Shown here in pieces: positions 7,540-35,078 of a stretch of DNA of 64,000 nt. Position 1 is the stretch's first letter. The number at the start of each line of letters is the position of its first letter. Source of the stretch: Haliotis rufescens (taxonomy: Eukaryota); assembly GCF_023055435.1 (NCBI RefSeq), contig NW_025963913.1, forward strand, positions 5,580,001 to 5,644,000, read 5' to 3'. The notes beneath the pieces were generated by a model. That model saw only the letters and a list, made by a program, of their open reading frames with translations, was not told the DNA's origin and did not search any database. The position numbers and the translations under genes are program-made.

Positions 7540-8130
7540 TCCATGCTCTCACAAGGCGACCTACAGACATGTTTCAGCACCCTGTCCTTGCTCTCACAAG
7601 GCGACCTACAGACATGTTTCAGCACCTTGTCCATGCTCTCACAAGGTGACCTACAGACATGTTTCAGCACTCTGTCCATGCTCTCACAAGGTGACCTACA
7701 GACATGTTTCAGCACCCTGTCCTTGCTCTCACAAGGCGACCTACAGACATGTTTCAGCACCTTGTCCATGCTCTCACAAGGTGACCTACAGACATGTTTC
7801 AGGACCCTGTCCATGCTCTCACAAGGTGACCTACAGACATGTTTCAGGACCCTATCCATGCTCTCACAAGGTGACCTACAGACATGTTTCAGGACCCTGT
7901 CCATGCTCTCACAAGGTGACCTACAGACATGTTTCAGGACCCTGTCCATGCTCTCACAAGGTGACCTACAGACATGTTTCAGCACTCTGTCCATGCTCTC
8001 ACAAGGTGACCTACAGACATGTTTCAGGACCCTGTCCATGCTCTCACAAGGTGACCTACAGACATGTTTCAGGACCCTGTCCTTGCTCTCACAAGGTGAC
8101 CTACAGACATGTTTCAGCACCCTGTCTATG
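7540..8130. repeat. 45-bp minisatellite (13 copies) in TBK1 intron 3
   Basis: Unit CCATGCTCTCACAAGGTGACCTACAGACATGTTTCAGGACCCTGT. Confidence 0.95.
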
Positions 8131-8610
8131 CTGGGTGAGATTCTGAGTTACAGTCATGTTTCAGGACCCTGTCTATGCTGGGTGAGATTCTGACTTATTG
8201 GCCTGTTTCAGCTCCGAGTCAATGCCGGGTGAGATTCTGACTTATTGGCCTGTTTCAGCTCCAAGTCTATGCTGGATTAGATTCTGACTTATTGGCCTGT
8301 TTCAGCTCCAAGTCTATGATGGATGAGATCTGACTTATTGGCCTGTTTCAGCTCCGAGTCTATGCTGGGTGAGATTCTGACTTATTGGCCTGTTTCAGCT
8401 CCAAGTCTATGATGGATGAGATCTGACTTATTGGCCTGTTTCAGCTCCAAGTCTATGATGGATGAGATTCTGACTTATTAGCCTGTTTCAGCTCCAAGTC
8501 TATGCTGGGTGAGATTCTGACTTATTAGCCTGTTTCAGCTCCAAGTCTATGATGGGTGAGAATCTGAAATAGACATGTTTCAGCACCCTGTCTATGCTGG
8601 GTTAGATTGT
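8131..8610. repeat. 46/47-bp minisatellite (about 10 copies) related to the 45-bp array
   Basis: Unit TATGCTGGGTGAGATTCTGACTTATTGGCCTGTTTCAGCTCCAAGTC. Confidence 0.93.
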
Positions 8611-8630
8611 GGTCTAGGAAGTTGACTCAC

Positions 8631-8760
8631 AGACATGCATCAGCACCAGCAGGAATTCCTCTTCTGAAAGCCCAAAGCCATTATCTGGTTCCTCCAGCAG
8701 CGTGAAGAGACTCCCATGTGGGCAGAGCTCCATCACTAGCACCTTCTGGTAGGAGGTTTG
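8631..8760 (-). CDS. TBK1: TBK1-like exon 3 (hinge region)
   Basis: QTSYQKVLVMELCPHGSLFTLLEEPDNGFGLSEEEFLLVLMHV; ttccag|...|gtgagt, 130 nt, phase 0-1. Confidence 0.95.
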
Positions 8761-8767
8761 CTGGAAC

Positions 8768-30645: not shown

Positions 30646-30952
30646 TCAGGCCTGTGTTGAAGCGAGCCATTGTTTATCAGGTTTGTGTTGAAGTGAGCCA
30701 TTGTTTTTCAGGCATGTGGTGAAGTGATCCATTGTTTATCAGGCCTGTGTTGAAGTGAGCCATTGTTTATCAGGCCTGTGTTGAAGTGAGCCATTGTTTA
30801 TCAGGCCTGAGGTGAAGGACACCATTGTTTATCAGGCCTGTGGTGAAGTGAGCCATTGTTTATCAGGCCTGTGGTGAAGTGAGCCATTGTTTATCAGGCC
30901 TGTTGTTGAAATAAGCCACTGTGGTGTGTATCATTGTTTATCAGGCCTGTTT
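30645..30952. repeat. 31-bp minisatellite in the probable UXT 3'UTR
   Basis: Unit ATCAGGCCTGTGGTGAAGTGAGCCATTGTTT. Confidence 0.92.
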
Positions 30953-33856
30953 AACTGTTTATACAGAGATACGATTTTCACCCAAGATACTTCAAGAGTA
31001 CTCTCAAACTCAAAACATGGAATGAACTTGGGCATATTTACAGATCCATGGTTTAGAAATGAGACGGAGTATTGTGAAATAGACACATTGTATATATACT
31101 ATTCATGACAATAAAACACATCATCATAAACTATAAAGTGGACAATATCATTTGCCAGATCATTCAGGTGGAGGGACTGTCAGATTTGATTTACCAGCTC
31201 TGCTCTTCAAATGGGGGTCAAAGGATATCAAACACCTTGAATAGCTGACATATTTCTGATGCCGACGCTGAGGATATTTAATGTAAGATTAAAGGACAAC
31301 TTAATTCTTGTGTATGACTACTAAAGATTTGATAATTAGGAGGTAATTTCTGTTCAGATTTGTAGGTGTTATTGAGTATATGATGCCTGGAAATTTGGAG
31401 CCAAATGCTTAATTTTTTTAATTTGTGAAGGCGAAGATAAAGATACTTATATTCAGTAAAAAGTCCTGGTTTCTGTGTTCCACTCCCATTTAGATTGCAT
31501 CACACGCTCCCAGCAAGGTTAGTTACAACGAGGATGCAGTCGGAAAGCAAATATGGACGTCATGGACACATATTGTACCTACATTCTATTCCAAATTTGA
31601 TGTGTACATTTGTCGTGTCATGCTCTATATCTGCAGGGCTCTTGAAATCGCGAGAACCACGGAAATGGATCCAGGGGTTAGTGTAGGTTTACCGAAATGC
31701 TTGCCCTGGATGTTGTCACTTGTGCTGTGATGGGTAGATGGCTAAGGTTGTCGTGGATACACATATCTGCGACTTGTGATTGAAAGTAACTGCTTTGAAC
31801 ACAAACTGTTAACTATTAATTTCAACAAGCTCATTTCACATGTTAAGTACCCTAGTCTGGTCTCACCATCAAAAGAACGGGTCTTTGAAAACTACACAGT
31901 GACACACTGTAATAGACACTCAACACATGCAAAAGACCAACATTTATACTGCAGTTGTGGAACACTTTTATTTCGTTACATTATACAGTGACCTGATAGC
32001 GCACCCACACAAACTGATTGCAAGTACCATTGGAAAGGAGAGAAATTGGAAGTGACATGCTGGCCCTGTTGCATGTAATTGATGCGATACACATGTGAAC
32101 ATTGACTAAGACTTTGATATATTTTAACAATATTTTCCATGCAAAACACATGCCATAGAGAACGCCATTTATCATCCAAAGCTGGCTCCAACAGGAGGTA
32201 CTGCTGCACTGACATTGCTTCACAGTGCTTACCATTGTGACATCATCGGTTACCATGACATCACTATCAAATGACATCACTAATGGCTCTGCTACTGAAG
32301 CTGGTTAGCAGTACATTTTACACTTCAGACATGCTTTTAACTGTCTACAAACTAAAAAAGTTTGAAGAATGATTTTGGATGAAAAAATAGAATCTCACCA
32401 GAGTGTCTTTTGATATCAAACATATCAACAATCATTGATAAAAGTTTAAATCTCCTTGGCTTGGTGGGCCCAGTCGTCTAAGGCGCCGCGATTCACTGTG
32501 CAGAGTTGCGGCCCTTGGGCACGCCAGAAACCTATGATTGTGGGTTCGAATCTCGGTACGCCCCGATCATGTTTCTAGGTTTTGTCAGCACCATACCCGT
32601 GCTCGTGGGTTTCACCAAAGTGGTAAACGTCTGAGACCTGCATCACTTCGGGCTTGCAAACATAATAGCTTGTGTCAGTCAAAATATATATGTGTAGATC
32701 AAGTTTTGTTCATATCATTTTGGGCATAATTTATTTCATTTTTGGTCGGTGTTGTGAGAAAATAAAAATGCTTATGGACAGATAAATACCAAAAAAATGA
32801 TGCTAATTTTATTACCTTTTCACTCCAGTCAGTCAAATATGTAATTCCTGACTCAGAAGTCTGTTATTCAGTGATAGTGTTTACCATGCTGACTTGTATA
32901 TGTACTTGGCTGAAACCTCCATGTGCCAACGTAATAAACTGCAACTAGTGGTGTTTGCAAGTACTTTCACAATCAGAAGTAGCCTTCAGTCTTAACTTAT
33001 AACTTCCAGTTGGGCAAACACATGCTAACTACAGAAAAAGCTTAAACTTGAAAGTACCATGTCTATGGATAGGGAACTGGGGATTCTGGGTTTGAATAGG
33101 GATCCCCTGCAATTTATGCTTGTCCACCCCATGGGGATTCTGGGCTGGAATATAGGTCCCCATGCTTGTCATGAGAGATAACTAAATGGACCAGGTGGAT
33201 CCTTGGTTGTCCTGGTATCCCAATTGTGTTGAGTGATGTTCATGATGTCAATCATTGGATTGTCTGGTCTAGACTTGATTCTTTACAGACTGCTGTCATA
33301 TAGCTGGAACATTGCTGAGTGCAGCGTTCAACAACAAACCAACCAAACGCCCAACTAGGCTAATAAGAAACCCAAATAAACTTATGATGTAATGTGAATA
33401 CTTCAGGAGGCCTAGTACAGTACAGAATGCTCAGTGCTTTATAAGAAAGACATATGCTTTATAATCTGGCGATGTCACATCTGAATTTGGCAACATGGTT
33501 AGTGTAGCATGTATTGTGAAAGGAACAAATACCAGTATGACATCATCTAACATCAACTAAGGTGCAACAGTGACTGGCAATGAATGACACAACCACTCCA
33601 CAATGACCTCAAAGATGACTGACATTTGATGAGGGATTCATATATATATATATATATATATATATTTATATATAAGTCATCAGGGCTGTAGAGGTAAATG
33701 TGCCTCGGAATGAGGATGAAAAAGAGTAACCTTGACCTGTGACTAATCTTGGCTGAAAGTTTTTCAAAGAAGGGACCCATTCTAGTGAAGACATGTTCTT
33801 TGTTTAATGATAAAAGTACCTGCCGTGATATTGCTTGAAAGTTGATAAAAGTAGCG

Positions 33857-34297
33857 TAAAGCCAAATGGATCCGTTCACGTGGTTCTTGCAATCTCAAAT
33901 TAACCGCCCCTGATTTCCATAAATCACTTTGATTTACTGTGCTACTCAGTCTAACGGACCAATCAGAATGCGAGTTACAAAACAGCCTCAAAATTTGGAT
34001 CAGCAATATCAACAACATGGCGACCAGTACCACTGATTATGATAGAGCATGCAAGAAATCCAACATTGAAAAGCTGACTGACATGAGAAAGAAAGCCCTA
34101 AATAATGTTTTTGATGGAAAGGATCTCTTCATGTCTATTAACACTGATGGTGGCAAGTCCCTTTGCTTCCAAGCATTCCCTGCAATCTGCCTATTTCCTT
34201 ATTCCTTATCTCCACATTTGATTGGTCGGTAAAATGTTAATGAAAATGAAGGAGGGTAAATTGAGATTGCGAGAACATGGAATGGATCCAGGGCTTA
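33857..34297 (+). mobile_element. Inverted-repeat-bounded relic carrying a RecQ-like helicase fragment (Academ-like?)
   Basis: About 40-bp imperfect inverted repeats (TGGATCC...TTCTTGCAATCTCAAATT); ORF 33939-34232 contains KALNNVFDGKDLFMSINTDGGKSLCFQAFP, a degenerate RecQ motif I. Confidence 0.6.
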
Positions 34298-34349
34298 GTA
34301 TAGGCTTGCTGAATTGCGAGCCCTGGAGATGTTGAGGATGATATAGTCA

Positions 34350-35078
34350 CAGTTGTGCCATGACTGTCAGTAGTGATAATCTAGCTGTACCAGACGTTGA
34401 TCAGTCAAACTGGAGACCAAGGGAAGATGTGCCATTAGCTGTCAGTAGTGATATTCTAGGTGTAGCAGACGTTGATCAGTCAAACTGGAGACCAAGGGAA
34501 GACGTGCCATTAACTGTCAGTAGTGATATTCTAGCTGTAGCAGATGTGGATCAGTCAAACTGGAGACCAAGGGAAGATGTGCCATTAACTGTCAGTAGTA
34601 ATATTCTAGCTGTAGCAGACGTGGATCAGTCAAACTGGAGACCAAGGAAAGATAACCAGTTGTGCCATTATTTTCAGTAGTGATATTCTAGCTGTAGCAG
34701 ACGTGGATAAGTCCAACTGGAGAACAAGGGAAGATAACCAGATGTGCCATGAACCGCCAGTAGTGATATTCTAGCTGTAGCAGACGTGGATCAGTCAAAC
34801 TTGAGTCCAAGGGAAGATAACCAGATGTGCCATTAACTGTCAGTAGTGATATTCTAGCTGTAGCAGACGTGGATTAGTCAAACTTGAGTCCAAGGGAAGA
34901 TAACCAGTTGTGCCATGAACCGCCAGTAGTGATATTCTAGCTGTAGAAGACGTGGATCAGTCAAACTTGAGACCAAGGGAAGATAACCAGTTGTGCCATG
35001 AACCGCCAGTAGTGATATTCTAGCTGTAGCAGACGTGGATCAGTCAAACTTGAGACCAAGGGAAGATAACCAGTTGTG
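34350..35078. repeat. 75/83-bp minisatellite (about 9 copies) overlapping the FAM185A stop codon
   Basis: Unit TCAGTCAAACTTGAGACCAAGGGAAGATAACCAGTTGTGCCATGAACCGCCAGTAGTGATATTCTAGCTGTAGCAGACGTGGA. Confidence 0.94.

What the first reader, a model, noticed from the sequence alone, without database searches (positions are those of the whole stretch)
7540..35078. Recurrent pattern: minisatellites seeded at gene functional boundaries in three different genes
Within about 28 kb, three arrays have units homologous to a coding boundary and expand only into the non-coding side: the TBK1 exon-3 donor (45 bp), the UXT stop codon (29 bp) and the FAM185A stop codon (75/83 bp). A fourth (22 bp) abuts the TBK1 exon-3 acceptor. 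Inference: either a very high genome-wide rate of tandem duplication filtered by selection at exon edges, or a mutational mechanism favouring exon edges (higher GC, transcription/R-loop or splicing-coupled). I do not know of a named system for this, and it is the best novelty candidate here.
Basis: partly seen in the sequence, partly recalled or inferred. Interest (0 to 1): 0.7.

Follow-up and report, generated by a model that had tools for sequence, protein, structure and literature searches.

The report
Abalone minisatellites hugging exon edges
Short tandem repeats that copy an exon end or stop codon into neighbouring non-coding DNA are real here and common in a sample of this abalone genome; they are a known kind ("mirages"), and long ones sit at exon edges about twice as often as chance, likely because DNA next to exons is shielded from deletion.

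Summary
The arrays are real. The FAM185A 83-bp unit is an exact copy of the last 13 codons, the stop and 3' UTR. The TBK1 45/47-bp compound array derives from the exon-3 donor. The UXT link is old but detectable. The 22-bp unit only abuts the acceptor. A named system exists: amphioxus "mirages" and human F7 IVS7-type minisatellites; this scan also noted the same thing earlier on other DNA (this genome and two worms). One-sided expansion follows by construction: the first stop or donor wins (TBK1: 4 of 4 RNA-like runs use the true donor). I ran the proposed test on 657 splice edges elsewhere in G000 (1.39 Mb, one array per 3.4 kb). Edge-associated arrays: 50 against 26.7 GC-matched (1.9x, bootstrap 1.3-2.5). 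Junction-copying arrays: 23 against 14.9 (interval includes 1), of which donors 17 against 7.4 and acceptors 6 against 7.5. The excess lies in long arrays, shows no strand skew, and the abutting part did not replicate in a 185-edge subset. No array overlapped any of 51 putative stops. The window (3 of 49 splice edges) is typical. Known kind, new measurement.

The parts
7538..8132 (-). 45-bp minisatellite block (13 copies), distal part of a compound array derived from the TBK1 exon-3 donor; copies keep GT
8110..8630 (-). 47-bp block and degenerate first units, proximal part of the same array; the 9 copies nearest the true donor have AT in place of GT
8631..8760 (-). TBK1 coding exon 3 (130 bp); its donor is the one joined to exon 4 in RNA-like contigs
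7137..7227 (-). TBK1 coding exon 4
8789..11182 (.). 22-bp minisatellite (109 copies) filling TBK1 intron 2; abuts both splice sites, no significant junction likeness
11232..11372 (-). TBK1 coding exon 2
30150..30215 (+). UXT last coding exon with TGA at 30213-30215
30216..30645 (+). Ladder of degenerate copies of the UXT stop region with a homogenised 29-bp core (30346-30577); predicted 3' UTR (first AATAAA 895 bp past the stop)
30645..30922 (+). 31-bp minisatellite adjoining the UXT ladder; no significant likeness to the exon
35040..35149 (-). FAM185A last coding exon; C-terminal 14 residues identical in two named Haliotis proteins
34350..35078 (-). 83/75-bp minisatellite (9 copies); first unit spans the last 13 codons and the stop; all 8 anchored copies keep a stop; identity to the first unit falls from 68 to 57 of 68 with distance

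Best explanation
These are mirage-type minisatellites: short tandem duplications, frequent throughout the sampled abalone gene regions, that took in an exon end or stop codon and are likely tolerated because the first donor or first stop still defines the gene, while the roughly twofold excess of long arrays at exon edges likely comes from edge DNA being shielded from intron turnover. Shown: arrays and their homology; background rate; use of the true TBK1 donor; the excess and its restriction to long arrays; scarcity of interspersed repeats within 50 bp of edges. From established knowledge: growth by unequal exchange and concerted evolution; 5'-to-3' donor scanning (F7). Inferred: acceptor copies are purged more often because they lie upstream of the true site; deletions and insertions erase or displace mid-intron arrays and eat the spacer of long arrays until the splice signal stops them; no special exon-edge mutagen is needed.
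For: Background one array per 3.4 kb; window rate equals sample rate. True donor used in 4 of 4 RNA-like runs from two organisms although 14 of 23 copies keep GT with scores 2.2-2.4 against 3.0. In 11 donor arrays elsewhere 192 of 235 copies keep GT, so tolerance does not need decay. Donors 17 of 321 against acceptors 6 of 336. Abutting excess rises with length: 1.7x under 150 bp (not significant), 4.4x from 150, 5.8x from 600; 10 or more copies in 7 of 11 overlapping, 13 of 26 abutting, 30 of 136 far arrays. Detected interspersed repeats cover 4% at 0-24 bp, 11% at 25-49, 20% at 50-99, 33-39% beyond 100 bp; arrays of 300 bp or more start at 0.07 per kb in such repeats against 0.21 outside. 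Large intronic indels in abalone: PMC6905558 (passages) and a 75-bp deletion in TBK1 intron 3 of organism C.
Against: Masking detected repeats lowers the abutting ratio only from 3.1 to 2.9, though the repeat library came from 0.1% of the genome. The 50-199 bp zone, still poorer in repeats, shows no excess (38 against 33.9). Edge arrays are not more diverged than far ones (median match 88-91% against 88-90%) and their exon-side ends are not sharper, so neither greater age nor spacer erosion is shown. The abutting excess was absent in the 185-edge subset (4 against 3.3-3.7).
Confidence: 0.55

Rival explanations
1. Tandem duplications arise or expand faster at exon edges. Most likely form: in a highly heterozygous genome, exchange or repair synthesis begun in a conserved exon runs into indel-rich intron and slips at the junction. 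A transcription- or splicing-coupled break is a second form.
For: GC-matched excess 1.9x (1.3-2.5), donor mirages 2.3x (1.25-3.65); within-intron permutation 15 against 6.3, p 0.0002; excess confined to the first 50 bp; survives repeat masking. Mirages were first named in amphioxus, also very heterozygous (heterozygosity recalled, not from a call).
Against: Short arrays are not clearly enriched (7 against 4.1 abutting; 0 against 1.8 overlapping). No sense-strand G skew at edges (11 of 30 positive against 41 of 69 far). Acceptor mirages 0.8x; no stop overlap in 51.
Confidence: 0.25
2. There is no true excess: uniform, GC-favouring seeding plus selection explains everything, and the measured excess is sampling noise or a product of how edges were placed.
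For: Junction-copying class 23 against 14.9, interval 0.9-2.4, and the null omits degenerate first copies (about 7% of far arrays have one), which would add 2-3 expected. Abutting excess not seen in the second set. Edges were predicted from HMM or tblastn ends plus a weight matrix, in seven gene families.
Against: Pooled ratio stays above 1 in all 1500 bootstrap draws; holds for strong sites only (39 against 19.1); within-intron test holds.
Confidence: 0.14
3. The arrays are kept by selection as splicing, 3' UTR or expression modulators.
For: The TBK1 copies nearest the donor have all lost GT (9 of 9); traces of arrays occur in other organisms; repeats near splice sites affect splicing in humans (PMC13196383, passage).
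Against: Units are unrelated between genes; one mutation spread by concerted evolution explains the GT loss; only the normal joint is seen.
Confidence: 0.05
4. Assembly artefacts.
For: No read was laid across an array.
Against: Units are diverged in a graded way; an organism C contig runs into the distal 45-bp unit; contigs of four runs end inside the first FAM185A unit, as a repeat would cause (inference).
Confidence: 0.01

Closest known systems
Amphioxus 'mirage' minisatellites (Adh3, globins BflGb6/BflGb9, PGBD5, TnC; PMC3087553 and PMC3902484, passages read)
   Same: Tandem copies of an exon-intron boundary running into the intron, many with GT/AG, normal splicing kept; units 10-160 bp; both boundary types.
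   Different: Here a mollusc; frequency measured against a null (about 5% of donors, 2% of acceptors in the sample); stop-codon versions; a second class that abuts without copying the junction.
Human junction-spanning VNTRs: F7 IVS7 37 bp, LMNB2 100 bp, PDGF 81 bp, CBS, 6-16 (PMC1557585, abstract and passages read)
   Same: First unit spans the donor, later copies are pseudo-sites, the most upstream site is used.
   Different: Described gene by gene; TBK1 copies have diverged from the junction, and the near ones lost GT.
Internal tandem repeats at exon-intron boundaries in human segmental duplications (PMC2812944, passages read)
   Same: Minisatellites of about 30 bp at boundaries, expanding lineage-specifically.
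   Different: There they alter gene structure in recent paralogues; here single-copy genes with unchanged proteins.

Membership tests
Mirage / junction-spanning minisatellite | Unit contains exon end plus intron start (TBK1 45/47-bp array) | tested here: met
   23 of 29 bases across the donor, 0 of 1894 tiles as good
Mirage / junction-spanning minisatellite | Copies lie in the intron and many keep the splice dinucleotide | tested here: met
   14 of 23 TBK1 copies keep GT; 192 of 235 in 11 other donor arrays
Mirage / junction-spanning minisatellite | Normal splicing at the authentic site | tested here: met
   4 of 4 RNA-like contig sets join exon 4 to the true exon-3 end; contigs drop rare forms, so minor use of copies is not excluded
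Mirage / junction-spanning minisatellite | Copy-number polymorphism between haplotypes or cells | tested here: inconclusive
Mirage / junction-spanning minisatellite | Unit spans a splice junction (FAM185A and UXT arrays) | tested here: not met
   They span a stop codon, not a splice site: they work like mirages but are not filed as such
Mirage / junction-spanning minisatellite | Unit spans a splice junction (TBK1 22-bp array) | tested here: not met
   No significant likeness to acceptor or donor; an ordinary intronic minisatellite that abuts

The most novel reading that the evidence does not exclude
Exon edges in abalone are genuine hot spots of tandem duplication, driven by the step from conserved exon to indel-rich intron between homologues; about one donor in twenty carries a ladder of intact pseudo-donors, so the genome would hold thousands of natural tests of first-donor choice and a standing supply of new introns and exon extensions.
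Probability: 0.22. Interest if true: 0.65.

Novelty: new member of a known kind. Interest (0 to 1): 0.36.

Why it matters
Mirages were described locus by locus, with the generating mechanism called unclear (PMC3087553). This sample puts numbers on them in a mollusc: 17 of 321 donors, 6 of 336 acceptors, and a further excess of long arrays stopping within 50 bp of splice sites. If that holds genome-wide, two old questions become testable at scale: how the spliceosome picks one of many identical donors, and whether introns arise by tandem duplication. In practice, such arrays can mislead gene prediction and give gene-linked length markers. The window itself is an ordinary example.

Tried and rejected
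Kinase and Ras family searches returned mostly single-exon genes at the top, so only partial matches were used for edges; the tandem myosin cluster on C113 and duplicate small contigs C543/C553 were mostly left out as non-independent (315 matches kept; 282 had 1.2 kb flanks; 472 edges passed the matrix score of 5). The first profile silently dropped edges near tblastn overhangs and was redone. Length classes were biased by cut-off loci and redone. The idea that all abutting arrays are decayed mirages was rejected: 3 of 26 copy the junction. R-loop strand skew: not seen. Polarity of homogenisation and sharpness of ends: no difference. Stop codons: 0 of 51 overlapped, 1 began 4 bp after, about 1 expected of each; many of the 51 are unverified frame ends. 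GC matching is partly circular, since the GC measured at an event is the array's own first unit. No run was on record as RNA; the RNA label of X15, X16, X18, X20 is a guess supported by their exon-only joints. The amphioxus Adh paper (PMC117041) is not held; seen only as cited. Searches for a published genome-wide edge enrichment or a stop-spanning minisatellite found none in the held library; these are narrow phrase searches that miss subscription papers. No supplements were read.
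Full report
Setting. The window is G000:C135:5580001-5644000. Its proteins match Haliotis proteins named TBK1-like (98% over exon 3) and FAM185A-like (98% and 81% over exon 1), so it is an abalone. Exons of TBK1, EMC3, UXT and FAM185A were placed by coordinates and translation, with Pfam support for UXT and EMC3 and contig joints for FAM185A and TBK1 exon 4.

The four arrays. Tandem Repeats Finder confirms all of them. 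FAM185A: the first 83-bp unit holds the last 13 codons, the stop and 41 bases of UTR; the protein end is identical in two named Haliotis proteins; all 8 anchored copies keep a stop and identity falls with distance. TBK1 donor: the array is compound. A degenerate first unit starts in exon 3, nine copies with AT in place of GT follow (mostly 47-bp units), then fourteen with GT (mostly 45-bp units). UXT: the homogenised 29-bp core is only weakly like the stop region, but a ladder of degenerate copies links them. The 22-bp array fills intron 2 and copies neither junction. So two are clear, one is old but supported, and one only abuts.

Why one side only. A duplication over a stop leaves every later copy in the UTR, because translation ends at the first stop; no mechanism is needed. 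For donors the first site wins: in 4 of 4 RNA-like contig sets, from organisms A and C and four studies, exon 4 is joined to the true exon-3 end and no joint to a copy appears (contigs drop rare forms). This is the behaviour shown by experiment for human F7 IVS7 (PMC1557585, abstract and passages).

Known system. Tandem copies of intron-exon boundaries are named mirages in amphioxus, do not disturb splicing, and vary in length (PMC3087553, PMC3902484, passages). These notes are not evidence; the papers were checked.

The enrichment test. I took exon matches of seven Pfam families in G000, kept 315 non-redundant partial matches, and obtained flanks for 282. The 1.39 Mb held 406 array clusters with period 10 or more, one per 3,430 bp, 14% of the DNA; the window has 20 in 64 kb. 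Edges were set by a splice matrix trained on window exons and refined. For each edge I counted array ends facing the exon per non-array base, by distance. In 472 edges: 11 arrays overlap the exon against 8.8 expected, and 26 begin 0-49 bp into the intron against 9.3. In 71 introns with both ends known, 15 of 46 arrays lie at an edge against 6.3 (p 0.0002). A second set of 185 edges from 106 tblastn-found exons in the same DNA gave 6 overlapping and 4 abutting, an abutting ratio of 1.07; its edges are less sure and its 50-199 bp zone was high (15 against 9.3). Pooled, GC-matched, with bootstrap over segments: junction-copying 23 against 14.9 (1.5x, 0.9-2.4); donors 17 against 7.4 (2.3x, 1.25-3.65); acceptors 6 against 7.5; abutting without homology 27 against 11.8 (2.3x, 1.4-3.3); both 50 against 26.7 (1.9x, 1.3-2.5). 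The null for the junction-copying class leaves out degenerate first copies and is 2-3 too low (control), so that class is nearer 1.3x overall and 2x for donors. Array starts are three times more frequent in GC-rich than GC-poor intron DNA (0.81 against 0.24 per kb), which accounts for part of the raw excess over exons. No array overlapped any of 51 putative stops, a weak test. The window's 3 of 49 splice edges match the sample's 50 of 657.

Mechanism of the excess. It concerns long arrays: 1.7x below 150 bp, 4.4x from 150, 5.8x from 600, and copy numbers are higher at edges. There is no strand skew. Interspersed repeats are rare within 50 bp of edges and long arrays are rare in them, and abalone introns carry large indel polymorphisms (PMC6905558, passages). 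I infer that edge DNA is long-lived, so arrays anchored there persist and grow, and that long arrays lose spacer until the splice signal blocks further loss. Against this: masking barely changes the ratio, edge arrays are not more diverged, and their ends are not sharper. A real mutational bias at the conserved-to-variable step therefore remains open (0.25). The donor-acceptor difference fits selection: donor copies lie behind the first site and are silent even when intact (192 of 235 keep GT), whereas acceptor copies lie ahead of the true site (inference).

Artefact. Unlikely: graded divergence of units, an organism C contig entering the distal 45-bp unit, and contigs of four runs ending inside the first FAM185A unit. 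No read spans an array.

Verdict. Observation partly confirmed, interpretation partly supported. The thing is a new set of members of a known kind; the stop-codon form and the measured twofold excess were not found in my searches. Interest 0.36.

Noticed in passing
G000:C556:3503089-3503244, C556:60047477-60047584, C445:29048116-29048232 (in L197, L213, L295): Donor ladders with 22-47 copies that all keep GT, nearly all scoring as high as the true donor; good test cases for first-donor choice.
   Followed up: partly
window 18513-18729: Perfect two-copy 111-bp tandem duplication between TBK1 and EMC3; a very young duplication or an assembly slip.
   Followed up: no
window 42116-46489: 24-bp array of 182 copies starting about 420 bp upstream of the FAM185A start codon.
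   Followed up: no
window 24335-24675: EMC3 and UXT start codons face apart 340 bp from each other; likely shared promoter.
   Followed up: no
window 56280-58292: Adjacent 18-bp and 80-bp arrays with strong strand skew next to a run of N; coding status not examined.
   Followed up: no
window 48981-49782: G-rich 15-bp array of 53 copies.
   Followed up: no
window 61321-61377 and 62698-63037: Short first exon resembling a caveolin start (likeness recalled, not tested) followed by a 23-bp array in the presumed intron.
   Followed up: no
window 7373-7447: 75-bp deletion in TBK1 intron 3 in a contig of organism C.
   Followed up: no
L027 (G000:C594:4470200-4473859): 26-bp array of 51 copies begins 4 bp after the putative stop of a kinase frame.
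   Followed up: partly
G000:C113:13.93-14.29 Mb: Tandem cluster of well over ten myosin-head paralogues.
   Followed up: no
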